Source: Nitrosopumilaceae archaeon
GTDB taxonomy: Archaea; Thermoproteota; Nitrososphaeria; Nitrososphaerales; Nitrosopumilaceae
Length of the DNA stretch: 64,000 nucleotides
Assembly (NCBI GenBank): GCA_965209085.1
Contig: OZ242376.1
Span: 960,001-1,024,000 of the forward strand
Reading direction: 5' to 3'
Shown here: one piece after another, positions 1,668-6,508 of the stretch
Position numbering within the stretch: position 1 is the first letter of the stretch
Layout of the letters: every line of letters begins with the position of its first letter
The notes under the pieces: generated by a model
Databases searched by the model: none
The model's input: only the letters and a program-made list of their open reading frames with translations
What the model was told of the DNA's origin: nothing
Translations under genes and position numbers: made by a program

Positions 1668-2015
1668 TAGTATCATAATGATGTACATTCAAATTACCTC
1701 TACTCACATCCCCAAAAACAAACATATTGTTTATTTCCATATACGTTCCGCCAACTGTAAACTGCCGCTGTACAGTATTAACAGAAGATACAACCCGTGC
1801 CAAGGTATTATCATTTAACATTGGAGACATTTTAACATTAATATTATTAGAGTTCATGCATAATCAACTGTAAAGACATACGGTTCCTACTATGACACTG
1901 TCATGATCAAAGTACACATGGCCTAAAACCTTCAAGCAGACAACAAAATAAATCAAAATGTCATATGCATGACAAAAAACAGAATATTATGCGTGACCGT
2001 ATGCGCAAAGATGTG

Positions 2016-3170
2016 CTACTTGATTTGAGGGCAGACTTTTTCCAACGGTTCGATATACTTGCGATCCTTTAACATGATGTGCAGATTGGTCAGTCCTGTA
2101 ACCACTTGGATTTCTGTATAAAATGCATCCATTGTGTCATCATATACGGCACTCATTCTGCGAAACCATTTGAGCCGGTTTATGGCATGCTCTACTTTTA
2201 TGCGCTTACGACTGATCCTCTTGCTATATTCGCGTTCTGTCTCTGTCAATCCCCTACCCTTTGGTTTTTTGTATGGCTGCTTTGAGATAATTCCAGGATA
2301 GTCTTTTTCCACGGACAAGTATCCCTTGTCGGTGTAGAGTGTAATTTGGCGCTCTTTTTTTGTATCAGAGTTTTTCATGCCATCGGTCCATTTGCCAAAA
2401 TTTGGCGGATTACGCCGCAGTACCTCCATGTCATGTACTGAGCCCTCTTCTGGACCGCCAATGTCATTTACCACTCCATCTTTGTTGGAGGTTATCTGTA
2501 TGCTGTAGACGTGCCTTTTGCGCTTTCCAGAATAGTATACTGTTTCTTGATTCTCCTGCGGTCTTTGAACCTGTACAAACGTGGCATCAAGATATAGCTC
2601 GCCGCCGCCTCTGCCGGGTACGAATTTTTTAAACAACTCGCTTGTACGTATTGTCCGTATTGCAACACCAATATTCTTAGCCGTTGGAAGAATATCCATC
2701 AATAGTTCATCAGAAAAGGTCAGATATCTGCTAATGGTGCTCTGATCAACGTCTGCAATGAACGCAAGTACTCCCTGTTTGAGATTATTGCGTTTGCGGC
2801 ACAATACGATAAACAAAACTTGCTTTACGGTAAGGATACAGGTGTTTCCAGGATCGTCGACATATTCTGAAAAGCGAGGGGTTTCTGGCGAGTCTTCAAC
2901 GGCATTTATGAACTGTTTCTGAATCCATTCAAATTCTTCACGATCCATTCCAGTCATCCCGTATAGATAATTGTCATCATCAACCATATGGTTCAAGTAT
3001 TCATAAGCAGATTGTTTTTCGGTCTTATCCCCATCTATCATTTTTTTGTAGCGTTGGTTTTCTGCTTCAAGTTTGGAGATTCTTTTTTCCAACTTGGAGA
3101 TTATACGTTTGTCTGTAGCACACATGCTGTGTGATTGTAATACTTGATCATAGATCTTTCGATTTGCCAA
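2016..3170 (-). CDS. IS5/ISL2-type DDE transposase (384 aa)
   Basis: C-terminal ~290 aa almost identical to 302..1501; N-terminal coiled-coil region diverged. Confidence 0.9.
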   Translation of the reverse strand: MANRKIYDQVLQSHSMCATDKRIISKLEKRISKLEAENQRYKKMIDGDKTEKQSAYEYLNHMVDDDNYLYGMTGMDREEFEWIQKQFINAVEDSPETPRFSEYVDDPGNTCILTVKQVLFIVLCRKRNNLKQGVLAFIADVDQSTISRYLTFSDELLMDILPTAKNIGVAIRTIRTSELFKKFVPGRGGGELYLDATFVQVQRPQENQETVYYSGKRKRHVYSIQITSNKDGVVNDIGGPEEGSVHDMEVLRRNPPNFGKWTDGMKNSDTKKERQITLYTDKGYLSVEKDYPGIISKQPYKKPKGRGLTETEREYSKRISRKRIKVEHAINRLKWFRRMSAVYDDTMDAFYTEIQVVTGLTNLHIMLKDRKYIEPLEKVCPQIK

Positions 3171-3203
3171 AATTGATTTTTTGGTTAATATGCATAACCA
3201 TAT

Positions 3204-4325
3204 GTGAAGGGAGATTCTAAGACCACAGATGGTTGTAAGAATGTCAAACGATCCGTATCACCGAAACGTAAATCATCTAAAAAAGATCCAAATGCAAACA
3301 AACAGATTACCACATATTCTGGGAAGAATATGTTTGTTGGAATGGACGTTCACAAGAAATTTCTTCAAGTTGCAATGATGGATAAAAAAGCCAAAGTGAT
3401 TTTTAATGAGAGGATTGAAAATGAAAACAAGTCCATCAGATGATTCTTCAGATCAAGCGTACCTGAAAATGCAAAAATCGTAATGGAATCTTCGTCCGTA
3501 TGGTACGGATTATATCGATACATGACAGATAAAATGGGTTATAATGTCGTATTGTCAAATCCATGGGCGACAAAAATCATCGCCGCATCCAAGAAAAAGA
3601 CCGACAAGAGGGATGCTGTAACACTTGCAGACCTATTACGGTGCGGATACATATCCCTCTGTCATGTCTCAAACAAGGACATAGTGGAACAACGGCAACT
3701 TGTACGATATCGCGACAGTCTTGTCAAGACAAGGACAACTCTAAAAAACAAAATACATGGAATTTTGTTACAGGGAGGGATAAAGATCTTTGGAGCAACA
3801 TTTACGCTTACATACAATAGAAAACTGCGTTCTCTAAAGGATTACCGTATAAACGGATATTTGGATTCTATTGGATTCGTTAATACAAAAATTGCGGATT
3901 CAAACATAAAGGTACACAACGCATCCTGTTCAAACAAGGATGCAATGTTACTCAAGACAATACCTGGCATAGGTGATTTTATTTCATTGATACTGGCAGC
4001 AGAGATTGATGGAGTTGAGAGGTTTTCTGAACCAAAACAACTCAAATCATATGCGAGTCTTGCCCCATCGGTTCGCAATTCAGCAGATGTGGTCCATCAT
4101 GGACATATAACAAAAAGAGGCAGCAGGATGATGCGGTGGGCACTGGTGGAAGCTGTTACCACCCATGTCCGATTTGCATCAGAGAGTAACATTTCTGAAT
4201 TTTACCGGCGTCTTGCAATAAAGAGAGGATCGTCCAAGGCCAAAGTTGCAGCAGCGGCCAAGATGCTGGATATCATATTTCGTATGCTAAAGGATAGGAG
4301 TGAATTTGAAATACATCATCGTTAA
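3204..4325 (+). pseudogene. IS110 DEDD recombinase with an in-frame TGA at 3441-3443
   Basis: ORFs 3204..3443 and 3483..4325 share a frame (…KSIR*FFRSSVPENAKIVME…). Catalytic D (GMDVHK), E (MESS) and D/D (KTDKRDA); C-terminal TIPGIG…LAPSVRNSA…ITKRG motif. Confidence 0.88.
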
Positions 4326-4500
4326 AGCAACAAACCGCGAGTTAGAGTTTGGGGATGTTACCCCGTTGCATAACTGCGGTAAGCTTTAACATGTGGACGA
4401 AGATGGTTGTGGGATTAAATCCCGAATGGATAGATGTCTTTTTACCTTTTGACTGGAAACAAACACATAGCGAAAGCCATACCGCATGACACAAAAAAGC
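4326..4500 (+). ncRNA. Predicted IS110 bridge/seek RNA
   Basis: Two stem / internal-loop / hairpin units (4334-4380 and ~4395-4439) whose loop sequences match the target site and the donor junction. Transcript boundaries are not known. Confidence 0.75.
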
Positions 4501-4538
4501 AAGAAACCTTTAAAAAGTATTCACATGGATAAACTCTA

Positions 4539-5285
4539 ATGCAACAACTGTCATACGATGAACTCGTAGATTATCTTGAAGATTCACCACGTTTACTACC
4601 AATACTGGGCTTGAAAAGAGTCCCGTCAAGGTCAACGTTGCAAGTAGCATCTACTAGAATTGATAAGCATTTCATCACATGGATGATAAATTCTGCAGGC
4701 AGACCTGGAATGAAAGGTACGTGGTACGGGGATTCTACAGGAATTGCAATAAACGGGCATAACACATGGCTTTATGCAATAAACGGGCATAACACATGGC
4801 TTTATGCAAAAAATGGATCAAGGTCAAGACTGGATTATCGCAAATTGCATATTGTAACTGCTGAAAACGGCATAATCATATCATAGGATATTACCCATGC
4901 ACGACGCCATGATGCGCCAATATTTGAGCAAATATGTGACACACTGCCGCACGGTTCCGGTCATGTGATGCTTGATGCAGCATATCTTTCATGCAACATG
5001 TGCACGCTCATAGAAAAGATTGGACGAATTCCTGTAATAATGTCAAGAAAAGGTGTTCGTGTACGTGGATTTGACGCAATGGGAAAGATGCTTCGATGGC
5101 ATCGTGATAATCCTGATGAATTTCTATCCATATACCACAAACGCAGCAACGTAGAGGCCACGTTTTCATCCATGAAGAAAAGGTTTTCATCCACTCCGAG
5201 TACCCGCAAATTTGCAACACAGAAAATTGAATTGGGCTTCTTTGTCTTGTGCCATAATATTCACATTCTAGCTGCCGCAGTCTAG
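4539..5285 (+). pseudogene. 5'-truncated IS4/IS5-superfamily (DDE_Tnp_1) transposase
   Basis: GLKRVPSRSTL, GDSTG, LDAAY and YHKRSNVEATFSSMK (Y-R-E-K) motifs. In-frame TAG at 4884-4886 and a 30-bp tandem duplication (~4745-4804). Probable right end …catggacagagcc at 5459. Confidence 0.8.
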
Positions 5286-5381
5286 ATTCTGACACTTTGT
5301 GTCAGATATGATCCTAGCGTATGCTATACTCTAAAACCCAATATTTGCAATACTGACAAGATGAGCAGGGCTTGATGATGA

Positions 5382-5454
5382 TGAATTGGTGAACATGTTA
5401 TATAATTTTGAATGAATTTGATCGGATTTTATAAAAAATGCTCATTCATGGACA
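5382..5454. repeat. ~73-bp IS-end sequence, repeated inverted at 35256-35329
   Basis: tgaattggtg…ataaaaaatgctcattcatggaca is the near-exact reverse complement of tgtccatgaatgagcatttttt…accaattca. Confidence 0.85.
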
Positions 5455-5515
5455 GAGCCTGTTCACCCCCAAGGGTTATAACGGGGTTAACAACGTTGGA
5501 AAAACTGTAAGAGAA

Positions 5516-6508
5516 ATGGGTCATAGAAGACATAGTCAACCACGTAGAGGCAGCCTTGCATATCTTCCTAGAGGACGTGCCAAGAGCATGGAGGCACGCA
5601 TTAGGGCATGGCCAAGTCCTGTATCAGAGGAGCCTCACATGTTGGCACATGTTGGATTCAAGGCAGGCTGCATACAGGTTGTTAGCATAGATGATAGGGA
5701 AAAAACACCAAACCATGGAAAACAGCTTGTAAGTTTGGGTACGGTTTTGGTAACGCCGCCTGTTACCATAGTCGGATTAAGGGGATACTCAAAGGATGCA
5801 AACGGTTTGCATGCCACTTTTGACGTTTACGCAAAAGATATGCCAAAAGACATTGCAAAACACATTTCTTTAAAAAATAACGGAGATGCTGCAGAATCTG
5901 CAAAAAAGAGACTCGGCAACATACACAGCATATTTGCCATTGTTGCAATATCTCCCAGCGATGCAGGATTGGAGCAGAAAAAACCGTACATATTTGAGAC
6001 TCCCATTAACGGAGGCGATATTGCAAAACAGTTTGACTATGTGCGTGAAATGCTCGGAAGACATATTCGGATAAGCGACGTATTTGAAACAGGTCAGGAA
6101 GTTGACACGGCTGCAATTACAAAAGGCAAAGGATGGCAAAGTGTCATAACCAGATACGGGGCAAAAAGAAAACAGCATAAATCAAGAAAAACTGTAAGAG
6201 AAATAGGAAGTTTGGGACCCATATCGCCCCAGTATGTAATGTATACTGTACCTAGGGCAGGCCAGATGGGATTTCATCAAAGAATAGAATACAACAAACG
6301 CATACTAGCAATGGACAGCTCAGAAGGCAGTAAATCGAAAATAAATCCGGCAGGAGGATACAAACACTTTGGATTTGTAAAGGGCGATTATGTAATACTA
6401 AAAGGATCCGTTCCTGGCACATACAGACGTATGATAAAAATGCGCACTCAGATACGCAGCGCTCCGCCCAAAGTATTAAAACCGAACATATTGGAGATTG
6501 TGGTATGA
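5516..6508 (+). CDS. rpl3: 50S ribosomal protein L3 (uL3)
   Basis: MGHRRHSQPRRGSLAYLPR N-terminus; start moved from 5438 to the ATG at 5516. Confidence 0.96.
   Translation: MGHRRHSQPRRGSLAYLPRGRAKSMEARIRAWPSPVSEEPHMLAHVGFKAGCIQVVSIDDREKTPNHGKQLVSLGTVLVTPPVTIVGLRGYSKDANGLHATFDVYAKDMPKDIAKHISLKNNGDAAESAKKRLGNIHSIFAIVAISPSDAGLEQKKPYIFETPINGGDIAKQFDYVREMLGRHIRISDVFETGQEVDTAAITKGKGWQSVITRYGAKRKQHKSRKTVREIGSLGPISPQYVMYTVPRAGQMGFHQRIEYNKRILAMDSSEGSKSKINPAGGYKHFGFVKGDYVILKGSVPGTYRRMIKMRTQIRSAPPKVLKPNILEIVV

What the first reader, a model, noticed from the sequence alone, without database searches (positions are those of the whole stretch)
4326..4445. Readable bridge RNA: target- and donor-binding loops of an archaeal IS110/IS1111 element
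Seen, loop 1: stem accgc(g)agtt/aactgcggt encloses TAGAGTTT (4343-4350), the hairpin gggg-atgtta-cccc, and TGCATAA (4367-4373). The reconstituted empty target is tgcat-AA-actcta (minus strand TAGAGT-TT-ATGCA). TAGAGTTT equals its left half and TGCATAA is the reverse complement of its right half, overlapping in a 2-nt TT core. Seen, loop 2: ATGGTT (4403-4408), hairpin gggatt-a-aatccc, and ATGGATA (4426-4432). These match both halves of the predicted circle junction atggat-AA-ccat around the same core. Established: this is the bispecific guide layout of IS621 bridge RNA and IS1111 seekRNA. Inference: this is a compact, programmable RNA-guided recombinase system in an ammonia-oxidising archaeon.
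Basis: partly seen in the sequence, partly recalled or inferred. Interest (0 to 1): 0.92.

Follow-up and report, generated by a model that had tools for sequence, protein, structure and literature searches.

The report
Archaeal IS1111-type bridge RNA confirmed
A jumping gene in an ammonia-oxidising archaeon carries, behind its recombinase gene, a small folded RNA whose loops spell out both its own ends and its landing site, which is the known bridge or seek RNA mechanism seen here in a little-studied archaeal branch.

Summary

The element at window 3197-4529 is an IS1111-type member of the IS110 family. It has a DEDD recombinase, a 7-nt left end before the start codon, a 204-nt 3' non-coding region and 7-bp subterminal inverted repeats.

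Across 22 relatives from Nitrososphaeria genomes the 3' region folds into two stem / internal-loop / hairpin modules. 97.1% of pair cells are paired and 12 of 22 pairs show compensatory changes.

- **Loop 1:** it tracks each element's own flanking DNA on the right side and strand (permutation p about 5e-5; four controls null).
- **Loop 2:** it tracks each element's own ends (20 of 22 exact).

- The crossover core is most likely TA, not AA.
- The window copy is a nonsense mutant, but two intact paralogues exist in the same genome.
- The target is the tip of the terminal inverted repeat of other insertion sequences.

No RNA data were available. This is a new member of a known kind. One further feature was found: a conserved TATA box in the right end lies at promoter distance from a GTG start in the left end, but only once the element is circularised.

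The parts
1848..3196 (-). Host insertion sequence (DDE_Tnp_4 transposase ORF 2016-3170). Its terminal inverted repeat tip is the target. The last 7 nt of that tip now lie at 4532-4538.
   Evidence: Pfam DDE_Tnp_4 at 1.1e-19. The inverted ends TAGAGTTCATGCATAATCAAC (from 1848) and ...GTTAATATGCATA + AACTCTA are shown.
3188..3194 (+). Left target arm (ATATGCA). The last 4 nt, TGCA, are copied in the loop-1 3' strand.
3195..3196 (.). Left copy of the TA core (crossover dinucleotide). AT or AA cannot be excluded for this copy alone.
   Evidence: TA flanks 26 of 26 left junctions.
3197..3208 (+). Left end ACCATATGTGAA, with the left subterminal inverted repeat ATGTGAA (3202-3208) and the GTG start (3204-3206).
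3204..4325 (+). DEDD recombinase gene (IS110 family), broken by an in-frame TGA at 3441-3443. Paralogues read CGA there.
   Evidence: Pfam PF01548 + PF02371. TGA versus CGA. NCBIfam NF033542 scores 223.9 bits on the intact paralogue.
4321..4327 (+). Helix P1, 5' strand. It overlaps the TAA stop codon and pairs with 4384-4390.
4335..4339 (+). Helix P2, 5' strand (CCGCG). It pairs with 4375-4379 (TGCGG).
   Evidence: The G-U pair is invariant in 22 of 22.
4340..4349 (+). Target-binding loop, 5' strand. This is the right-target guide: TAGAGTT(T) at 4343-4350 is complementary to (A)AACTCTA at 4531-4538.
4350..4365 (+). Hairpin P3 (UGGGG / CCCCG).
   Evidence: 5 of 5 pairs form in 20 of 22 relatives, in 5 stem versions.
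4365..4374 (+). Target-binding loop, 3' strand. This is the left-target guide: TGCA-TA at 4367-4372 is identical to the top strand at 3191-3196.
4375..4390 (+). 3' strands of P2 (4375-4379) and P1 (4384-4390).
4395..4399 (+). Helix P4, 5' strand (GGACG). It pairs with 4435-4439 (TGTCT).
4400..4409 (+). Donor-binding loop, 5' strand. ATGGT(T) at 4403-4408 is complementary to the left end (A)ACCAT at 3196-3201.
4410..4424 (+). Hairpin P5 (UGGGA / UCCCG).
   Evidence: U-G 22 of 22, G-C 22 of 22, and G-C/A-U exchanges at 141-154 (12 to 10).
4425..4434 (+). Donor-binding loop, 3' strand. ATGGA-TA at 4426-4432 is identical to the right end plus core at 4525-4531.
   Evidence: exact in 20 of 22 relatives.
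4435..4450 (+). P4 3' strand, followed by two T runs (4439-4443 and 4447-4450). These are a possible archaeal oligo-T terminator and 3' end of the RNA (inference).
   Evidence: CTTTT is conserved in the consensus.
4468..4479 (+). Conserved small hairpin TAGC-GAAA-GCCA. Its role is unknown.
   Evidence: Seen in the sequences printed (for example TAGT-GTAA-ACTA and CAGT-GTGA-ACTG in relatives). Judged by eye, not counted.
4509..4516 (+). TATA-like octamer TTTAAAAA facing outward, 21 nt before the right core.
4520..4529 (+). Right end TTCACATGGA, with the right subterminal inverted repeat TTCACAT (4520-4526).
4530..4531 (.). Right copy of the TA core.
   Evidence: 23 of 26 right junctions
4532..4538 (+). 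Right target arm AACTCTA, which is the outermost 7 nt of the host IS inverted repeat.

Best explanation
Window 3197-4529 is a 1.33-kb IS1111-type insertion sequence of the IS110 family. It sits 7 nt inside the tip of the terminal inverted repeat of a neighbouring DDE-type insertion sequence.

Behind its DEDD recombinase gene it encodes, on the same strand, a structured RNA of about 125 nt (about 4321-4445). The RNA is built of two stem / internal-loop / hairpin modules.

- Module 1 is the target-binding loop. [quoted passage not shown] Its 3' strand (4367-4372) is identical to the left target arm plus the TA core, so it pairs with the bottom strand.
- Module 2 is the donor-binding loop, built the same way. 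Its 5' strand (4403-4408) is complementary to the left end. Its 3' strand (4426-4432) is identical to the right end plus TA. Together these are the two halves of the junction formed when the element is excised as a circle.

The recombinase bound to this RNA would bring the circle junction and the target together and exchange strands at TA. This inserts the element without any duplication beyond the core.

Shown here: the anatomy, the ends, the empty sites, the conservation of the RNA helices, and the co-variation of the loops with flanks and ends.

Inferred from the family's published mechanism: that the RNA is made, that it binds the recombinase, and that it directs strand exchange.

The window copy carries a nonsense codon and could move only with recombinase supplied by the intact paralogues.
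For: Family and layout
1. Pfam finds DEDD_Tnp_IS110 and Transposase_20 on the two ORF pieces. NCBIfam NF033542 'IS110 family RNA-guided transposase' scores 223.9 bits against a cut-off of 140 on the intact paralogue. The C-terminal domain matches the solved ISCro4 and IS621 transposases at E = 7.8e-9 and 2.6e-6, with the serine of the GLxPxxxxS motif aligned.
2. The ends are fixed by copies and empty sites. There are 7 near-full copies plus fragments in the genome, all with the same junctions. Uninterrupted TGCAT[A/G]AACTCTA and TGCATA[A/C]GGTCTA sites lie at the tips of other insertion sequences.

RNA structure in 22 relatives
3. RNAalifold predicts 27 pairs, 14 with compensatory changes.
4. 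For my four helices, 97.1% of 482 cells are paired, against 88.1% in shuffles (0 of 500 reach it). 12 of 22 pairs change on both sides. Slid controls give 33-44% paired. P3 forms 5 of 5 pairs in 20 of 22 relatives.
5. Invariant G-U pairs (22 of 22, 22 of 22 and 21 of 22) would be A-C mismatches on the other strand. The RNA is therefore on the recombinase strand.

Loops and DNA
6. Loop 1 versus flanks, scored as longest common run, cognate against non-cognate:
   - 5' strand versus the reverse complement of the right flank: 4.82 against 2.81, permutation p about 5e-5.
   - 3' strand versus the left flank: 3.50 against 2.30, p about 5e-5.
   - Four wrong-side or wrong-strand controls: p 0.33-0.89.
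7. Loop 2 versus ends: the 3' strand equals the right end (5 nt) plus TA in 20 of 22 relatives. The G/A difference in the right end is matched in 21 of 21 (8 are A). GGGTA and GGATTA variants are matched too. The 5' strand ATGGT/ATAGT follows ACCAT/ACTAT.
8. Within this genome, copies with loop TAGAG lie at ..CTCTA sites (4 of 4). Copies with loop TAGAC lie mostly at ..GTCTA or ..GTCCA sites (6 of 9 independent insertions).
9. Guide order (the top-strand-complementary guide is 5') and RNA position (3' of the gene) are as published for IS1111-type elements (PMC11187229, abstract and section 9; PMC11208160, passages).
Against: - No transcript evidence: no RNA run holds the stretch.
- The single-sequence fold is only weakly better than shuffles (z = -2.08; z = -1.65).
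- No Rfam family matches.
- The left-target guide is short, 4-5 nt plus TA. It matches poorly (2 nt or fewer) in 7 of 22 relatives.
- The right-target guide matches 3 nt or fewer in 7 of 22 relatives.
- Three of 9 independent TAGAC-loop copies lie at CTCTA sites. By my own arithmetic the within-genome association is only about p = 0.05.
- The donor 5' strand carries an A-C mismatch to the left end in 3 relatives (L032, L036, L043).
- The register of the right-target guide relative to hairpin P3 differs by 0, +1 or +2 nt between lineages. The window family is +2. A rigid ribonucleoprotein does not obviously allow this (my reading).
- Related elements are not independent, so the permutation p-values are optimistic.
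- The window copy is broken.
Confidence: 0.9

Rival explanations
1. The internal copies of the ends (ATGGATA, ATGGTT) are DNA-level binding sites for the recombinase, like the internal transposase sites of other elements. The region is simply a structured 3' untranslated region, and no RNA guides anything.
For: The loop-2 segments are literal repeats of the element's own termini. Co-evolution of a protein with several copies of its site would also keep them alike. No transcript was seen.
Against: Loop 1 follows DNA that is not part of the element and differs between relatives, on the correct side and strand only. The helices are kept by compensatory changes and by strand-specific G-U pairs, which is selection on RNA. 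The family is experimentally RNA-guided (PMC11208160 and PMC11187229; passages and sections read).
Confidence: 0.04
2. The RNA guides target choice only, as a seekRNA in the narrow sense. The ends are recognised by protein through the subterminal inverted repeats. The loop-2 matches are not used for pairing.
For: The ends and subterminal repeats are highly conserved across the clade. This leaves little variation to test, and the 5' strand of loop 2 has mismatches in several relatives. The sections of the seekRNA paper that I read describe target matches.
Against: Where the right end does vary, the loop-2 3' strand varies with it in 20 of 22 relatives. The variants are ATGGA/ATAGA/ATGGG/GGATT. 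Loop 2 has the same architecture and the same TA position as loop 1. Donor pairing is shown for IS621 (PMC11208160 passages).
Confidence: 0.05
3. The matches in the window are chance similarities in an AT-rich spacer.
For: Each motif is short (6-8 nt). The 6-mer occurs in 5.3% of shuffles.
Against: All four together occurred in 0 of 200,000 shuffles. The same layout recurs with different sequences in 22 relatives.
Confidence: 0.01

Closest known systems
IS1111-group elements with a 3' seekRNA / bridge RNA (ISEc11, ISKpn4, ISPa11, ISPst6; Siddiquee et al. 2024, PMC11187229; Durrant et al. 2024, PMC11208160)
   Same: - A long non-coding region lies downstream of a DEDD transposase, and the left end is very short.
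- Subterminal inverted repeats are present.
- One RNA segment is complementary to the top strand, and it lies 5' of a segment complementary to the bottom strand. The two overlap at the crossover.
- Insertion is site-specific.
   Different: - The host is an archaeon (Nitrososphaeria).
- I could not align it with those elements, because no sequence of them was at hand. The nearest plasmid-borne homologues are haloarchaeal, at about 36% identity.
- The donor guides sit in a simple internal loop. Durrant et al. note a multi-loop in many IS1111 orthologues.
- The C-terminal motif reads GLAPSVRNSA (S-A) rather than the usual S-G or T-G.
- The recombinase has a 43-residue N-terminal extension that starts in the left end.
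IS621 bridge RNA (IS110 group, E. coli)
   Same: - It has two internal loops. [quoted passage not shown]
- The recombinase has the same two Pfam domains.
- There is a sequence match to PDB 8wt6.
   Different: - Here the RNA lies in the right end, not the left end.
- The guide order within each loop is reversed.
- The core is TA, not CT.
- The left-target guide is 4-5 nt plus core.
- No sigma-70 junction promoter is present.
IS4321 / IS5075 (IS1111 family; Partridge and Hall 2003; title seen only in reference lists)
   Same: They insert at a fixed position inside the terminal inverted repeats of other transposable elements.
   Different: Those are bacterial and target Tn21-family transposons. 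Here the targets are the tips of several archaeal DDE-type insertion sequences.
Junction promoters of IS circles (IS621 RE-LE promoter, passages; Pjunc of ISEc11, title only)
   Same: The logic is the same: a promoter that exists only when the right end meets the left end.
   Different: Here the whole TATA-type promoter lies in the right end, and only the start site and start codon lie in the left end. This is an archaeal design and is inferred, not shown.

Membership tests
IS110 family (DEDD recombinase elements) | [quoted passage not shown] | tested here: met
   (2.5e-17 and 1.4e-21 on the 280-aa piece, plus the N-terminal piece at 2.3e-4). (NF033542, 223.9 bits against a cut-off of 140, on the intact paralogue).
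IS110 family (DEDD recombinase elements) | Site-specific insertion with no duplication other than a 2-nt core present at both junctions | tested here: met
   Filled and empty sites compared.
IS1111 group | Long non-coding region downstream of the transposase gene, and a short left end | tested here: met
   The left end has 7 nt before the GTG at 3204. There are 204 nt from the stop (4325) to the right end (4529).
IS1111 group | Subterminal inverted repeats of 7-17 bp | tested here: met
   ATGTGAA at 3202-3208 and TTCACAT at 4520-4526, 7 bp, set 5 and 3 nt in from the core. They are conserved in relatives. This is the lower limit of the published range.
IS1111 group | C-terminal GL-P----S(t)G motif | tested here: inconclusive
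   The intact paralogue reads GLAPSVRNSA. G-L-x-P and the serine are present, but the next residue is A, not G. The window copy reads SLAPSVRNSA.
IS1111-type seekRNA / bridge RNA | RNA segment complementary to the target top strand lies 5' of the segment complementary to the bottom strand, and the two overlap at the crossover | tested here: met
   The order is as in PMC11187229 section 9.
IS1111-type seekRNA / bridge RNA | Guide loops co-vary with target and donor across orthologues | tested here: met
   (target, p about 5e-5, controls null). (donor, 20 of 22).
IS1111-type seekRNA / bridge RNA | The RNA is transcribed, binds the recombinase and is needed for transposition | not testable with these tools
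   No RNA run was listed. This needs bench work.
IS1111-type seekRNA / bridge RNA | Match to a curated RNA family model | tested here: not met
   No Rfam 15 family matched 4300-4540 even at E up to 10. I do not know whether Rfam holds a bridge RNA model.

The most novel reading that the evidence does not exclude
The element carries an archaeal version of a junction promoter, split differently from the bacterial ones.

A conserved purine-rich tract plus a TATA octamer sits in the right end (window 4509-4516). It lies 19-21 nt before the core in the relatives examined. The recombinase ORF starts at a GTG exactly 9 nt after the core in the left end (3204).

Only in the excised circle, or in a tandem copy, do the two come together. 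The TATA centre then lies about 26.5 nt from the G of the GTG. That is the usual archaeal TATA-to-start-site distance. The circle would therefore make a leaderless mRNA for the recombinase, with the bridge RNA as its 3' tail. Integrated copies would stay silent and fire outward into the neighbouring DNA.

If this is right, it is a self-limiting expression switch built from archaeal parts. It would also explain why the left end has no room for a promoter.
Probability: 0.5. Interest if true: 0.6.

Novelty: new member of a known kind. Interest (0 to 1): 0.45.

Why it matters
RNA-guided recombination by IS110-family elements was worked out in bacteria in 2024. Archaeal recombinase homologues are catalogued: 662 in the Vaysset et al. 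preprint (passages). My full-text searches found no description of their guide RNAs in ammonia-oxidising archaea.

This clade shows the mechanism is conserved there. Relatives occur in 75 of the 401 Nitrososphaeria-class genomes searched.

It also offers three practical things:
- **A compact native pair.** The system is a 373-aa recombinase plus an RNA of about 125 nt, in organisms that have no genetic tools.
- **A natural guide-swap experiment in one genome.** Two loop variants, G or C at 4347, sit at two target variants.
- **A readable rule set.** The rules are a TA core, a 4-5-nt left arm and a 6-8-nt right arm, and they can be tested directly.

The element's habit of landing in the inverted-repeat tips of other insertion sequences also helps explain the nested insertion-sequence clusters of this genome.

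Tried and rejected
- **Rfam.** Nothing relevant in 2500-6000 at E up to 10.
- **The search for related loci on genome contigs.** It gave one locus only (L030). I found no left end in that locus, so I dropped it.
- **First co-variation test.** I looked for an exact prefix or suffix match anywhere in a 190-nt stretch. It gave a clear left-flank signal: 14 of 26 cognate pairs had 4 nt or more, against 2.8% of non-cognate pairs. The right-flank signal was weak: 13 of 26 against 19.7%. I replaced it with a test restricted to the loop strands defined by the alignment.
- **Rows dropped.**
  - Of the 30 relatives' loci (L030, L032-L060), 23 gave both ends. L030, L035, L053, L054, L055, L056 and L057 did not. 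With 3 representatives of the window's own genome, this made 26 elements.
  - For alignment A1 I used 22 of the 26. L044 was left out because it has a deletion of the loop-1 5' strand. L049 and L051 were left out because of divergent or inserted hairpins. L060 was left out because a long downstream insertion shifts the excerpt.
- **RNA evidence.** No RNA holder was listed.
- **Read laying on four DNA or unknown-type runs.**
  - They held short contigs only. No piece spans the stretch, and no joint removes the element.
  - The contigs show C instead of T at 3441 in three runs. They also show the loop variant G>C at 4347.
- **Circle or tandem junction.** A search of the assembled genome found none.
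  - I rejected it as the less likely reading, for two reasons. TA flanks both ends across relatives. Sites such as TGCA-TA-CGGTCTA and ..GAA-TA-TGGTCTA do not fit AA.
  - It is not excluded for the window copy.
- **TGA as recoding or selenocysteine.** Rejected. Paralogues read CGA at the same codon, and two of them (L003, L004) have uninterrupted ORFs.
- **Separate promoter for the RNA upstream of P1.** No conserved TATA-like box lies at the right distance, and the ATTATAG-like consensus there is coding sequence. The RNA is more likely the 3' part of the recombinase transcript. This is an inference.
- **The search of earlier findings.** It was closed, so no earlier findings were seen.
- **Supplementary files.** These are closed. 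Durrant et al.'s table of predicted bridge RNAs for ISfinder entries, and Siddiquee et al.'s supplementary figures, may already include archaeal entries. I could not check.
- **Recalled knowledge.** Archaeal promoter geometry and the frequency of leaderless mRNAs are recalled and come from no call. These are a TATA centre near -26/-27, a purine-rich BRE upstream, and common leaderless mRNAs.
- **Unpublished genome.** The tally of 75 of 401 genomes includes G282, which is marked unpublished. No locus or other claim rests on it.
Full report
**What is there.** The window holds an insertion sequence bounded by ...TATGCA-TA-ACCATATGTG on the left (core at 3195-3196) and TTCACATGGA-TA-AACTCTAAT on the right (core at 4530-4531).

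- Between the ends lies one long reading frame (3204-4325), interrupted by a single in-frame TGA at 3441-3443.
- The pieces carry the two Pfam domains of IS110-family recombinases.
- An intact 373-aa paralogue scores 223.9 bits on NCBIfam NF033542, 'IS110 family RNA-guided transposase'. Its C-terminal domain aligns with the solved ISCro4 and IS621 transposases, including the motif serine.
- The left end leaves 7 nt before the GTG. The right non-coding part is 204 nt.
- ATGTGAA (3202-3208) and TTCACAT (4520-4526) form a 7-bp subterminal inverted repeat.
- This is the IS1111-type layout described in PMC11187229 (abstract and section 6) and PMC11208160 (passages).

In 200,000 shuffles of 4326-4445 the four motifs never occurred together. 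The single-sequence fold is weak evidence on its own (z = -2.08 and -1.65).

**Copies, ends and targets in the same genome.**
- *Copies.* The 1.69-Mb genome holds 7 near-full copies at 96-100% identity, many fragments, and a second family at about 65% identity.
  - Two copies (L003, L004) have an uninterrupted ORF.
  - The window copy and L002 share the TGA, where other copies read CGA.
  - Three other copies are frameshifted.
- *Target.* All copies have ...TGCA-TA- on the left. On the right they have -TA-AACTCTA or -TA-[A/C/T]GGTCTA. Uninterrupted versions of these sites are common. They are the outermost bases of the terminal inverted repeats of other insertion sequences.
- *Host element.* In the window the host is the DDE_Tnp_4 element at about 1848-3196. 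Its last 7 nt now lie at 4532-4538.
- *Loop variants.* The copies come in two loop-1 versions.
  - TAGAG (G at 4347) is found in 4 copies, all at CTCTA sites.
  - TAGAC is found in 10 copies, which make 9 independent insertions because L017 and L018 are one duplicated locus. Six of the 9 lie at GTCTA or GTCCA sites and three at CTCTA sites.
  - The guide base therefore changes with the target base, but not perfectly. By my arithmetic this is about p = 0.05.

**Relatives.** A search of 401 genomes of the class found recombinase relatives in 75, spread over 23 of 81 genera (the count includes G000 and one unpublished genome, G282).
- In 23 of the 30 fetched loci I could place both ends. With three representatives of this genome that makes 26 elements.
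- All 26 have TA before A[C/T][C/T]ATATGTG on the left. 23 of 26 have TA after CACAT[G/A]G[A/G] on the right.
- This is why I read the core as TA. In the window ATAA is shared by both junctions, so AT, TA or AA all fit that copy.

**RNA structure.** I aligned 22 of the 26 3' regions.
- RNAalifold finds an outer helix P1 that overlaps the stop codon, then P2, hairpin P3, P4 and hairpin P5. 14 of 27 pairs are supported by double changes.
- For the four well-aligned helices, 97.1% of 482 cells pair, against 88.1% in shuffles (0 of 500) and 33-44% when partners are slid. 12 of 22 pairs change on both sides.
- P3, which MAFFT misaligned by one column, forms 5 of 5 pairs in 20 of 22 sequences, in 5 versions.
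- Three G-U pairs are invariant or nearly so. This fixes the transcript to the recombinase strand.
- In window coordinates:

| Part | Window coordinates |
|---|---|
| P1 | 4321-4327 / 4384-4390 |
| P2 | 4335-4339 / 4375-4379 |
| Loop-1 strands | 4340-4349 and 4365-4374 |
| P3 | 4350-4365 |
| P4 | 4395-4399 / 4435-4439 |
| Loop-2 strands | 4400-4409 and 4425-4434 |
| P5 | 4410-4424 |

**Loops against DNA.** I used only the loop strands defined by the alignment and compared each element's strands with its own and with every other element's flanks.
- The loop-1 5' strand matches the reverse complement of its own right flank (mean run 4.82 against 2.81; 13 of 22 cognate against 25 of 462 non-cognate with 5 nt or more).
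- The loop-1 3' strand matches its own left flank (3.50 against 2.30).
- Each test reached p about 5e-5 in 20,000 permutations.
- Wrong side and wrong strand gave nothing (p 0.33-0.89).
- The loop-2 3' strand equals the last 5 nt of the right end plus TA in 20 of 22 relatives. It follows every variant of that end (ATGGA, ATAGA, ATGGG, GGATT). The loop-2 5' strand follows ACCAT/ACTAT, with three A-C exceptions.
- In both loops, the 3' strand carries the 'left' guide ending in TA, and the 5' strand carries the 'right' guide. This is the IS621 logic (definitions read) in the reversed order reported for IS1111-type seekRNAs.

**What does not fit neatly.**
- The left-target guide is short.
- Several relatives match their flanks poorly. 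These may be decayed copies or copies mobilised in trans.
- Relatedness inflates the statistics.
- The position of the right-target guide relative to P3 is not constant (my reading).
  - In about 12 relatives the two bases next to the invariant U-G pair face the core, as they do in loop 2.
  - In four relatives the guide is shifted by one base.
  - In the window's family and in L043 it is shifted by two.
  - I have no explanation for this.
- There is no RNA evidence. The contigs laid add only that C at 3441 and the C variant at 4347 are common in related populations.

**A further feature.**
- In all 26 elements a GTG lies exactly 9 nt after the left core. The frame from it runs through the whole recombinase in 17 of 26 (353-419 aa).
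- The stretch between that GTG and the conserved ..VG.D.HK motif (15-64 codons) is open in 22 of the 23 elements where it could be measured, while the other frames carry stops. So the gene starts inside the left end.
- A TATA-like octamer begins 19-21 nt before the right core in 20 of 26 by my pattern. By eye it is at the same place in the other six.
- Joined in a circle, the TATA centre and the G of the GTG are about 26.5 nt apart. That is the archaeal promoter-to-start distance as I recall it.
- I therefore propose a junction-dependent, leaderless recombinase transcript. This would be an archaeal counterpart of the RE-LE junction promoter of IS621 (passages).
- This is an inference only.

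**Comparison and novelty.**
- By layout, guide order, subterminal repeats and target habit this is an IS1111-type bridge or seek RNA element.
- By host and sequence it is a separate archaeal clade. The nearest plasmid-borne homologues are haloarchaeal at about 36% identity.
- The mechanism is known. NCBI's own model already names the protein 'RNA-guided'. Large surveys have predicted bridge RNAs across IS110/IS1111 elements and across bacterial and archaeal intergenic DNA.
- My searches found no paper that describes the RNA in ammonia-oxidising archaea. Supplementary tables that I could not open may list such entries.
It has a testable archaeal twist in how it may be expressed.

Noticed in passing
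window 4509-4516 with 3204-3206; the same positions in L032-L060: A conserved TATA-like octamer lies 19-21 nt before the right core, and a GTG start lies exactly 9 nt after the left core. They would be at promoter-to-start distance only across a circle junction. The recombinase ORF begins at that GTG.
   Followed up: partly
window 1848-3196 and 4532-4538: The host element is a DDE_Tnp_4 insertion sequence whose inverted repeat reads TAGAGTT[C/T]ATGCATA... Several insertion-sequence families of this genome share this tip, and all are potential targets.
   Followed up: partly
L035 (genome G100), about 330 nt upstream of the left end of the L035 element: A different IS1111-like element abuts and splits the left end of the L035 element at AACTA-TA-TGTGAA. 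Its own loop-1 strands read TTTTCACAT and AAACTATAAC, so its guides are set against the left end of the sibling family.
   Followed up: partly
L042 (genome G304), right junction: One copy is inserted into another copy's own DNA that encodes the loop-1 3' strand (TTTTG-TA-ACTGCAG). This is a form of self-targeting, to be expected because that strand is identical to the left target arm.
   Followed up: no
L037, L045, L043 (three other genomes): Relatives in other genera also sit in TGCATAA[A/G][G/C]TCTA-type inverted-repeat tips, but at different positions within them.
   Followed up: no
window 4468-4479: A conserved small hairpin with a GNRA-like loop (TAGC-GAAA-GCCA) lies between the donor loop and the TATA box. 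Relatives show compensatory versions by eye. Its role is unknown.
   Followed up: no
window 4750-4809: A perfect 30-nt tandem duplication lies inside the broken DDE transposase ORF to the right of the element (4539-4886).
   Followed up: no
own genome, second family (L020, L021, L023): All three copies of the 65%-identical second family share an in-frame TAA (..IASL*AIN..) and the same right flank for more than 250 nt. They are either mobilised in trans or copied together with the flanking repeat.
   Followed up: no
window 4049-4051, compared with paralogues: The window copy reads SLAP where paralogues read GLAP in the conserved GLxPxxxxS motif. This is a second likely defect of this copy.
   Followed up: no
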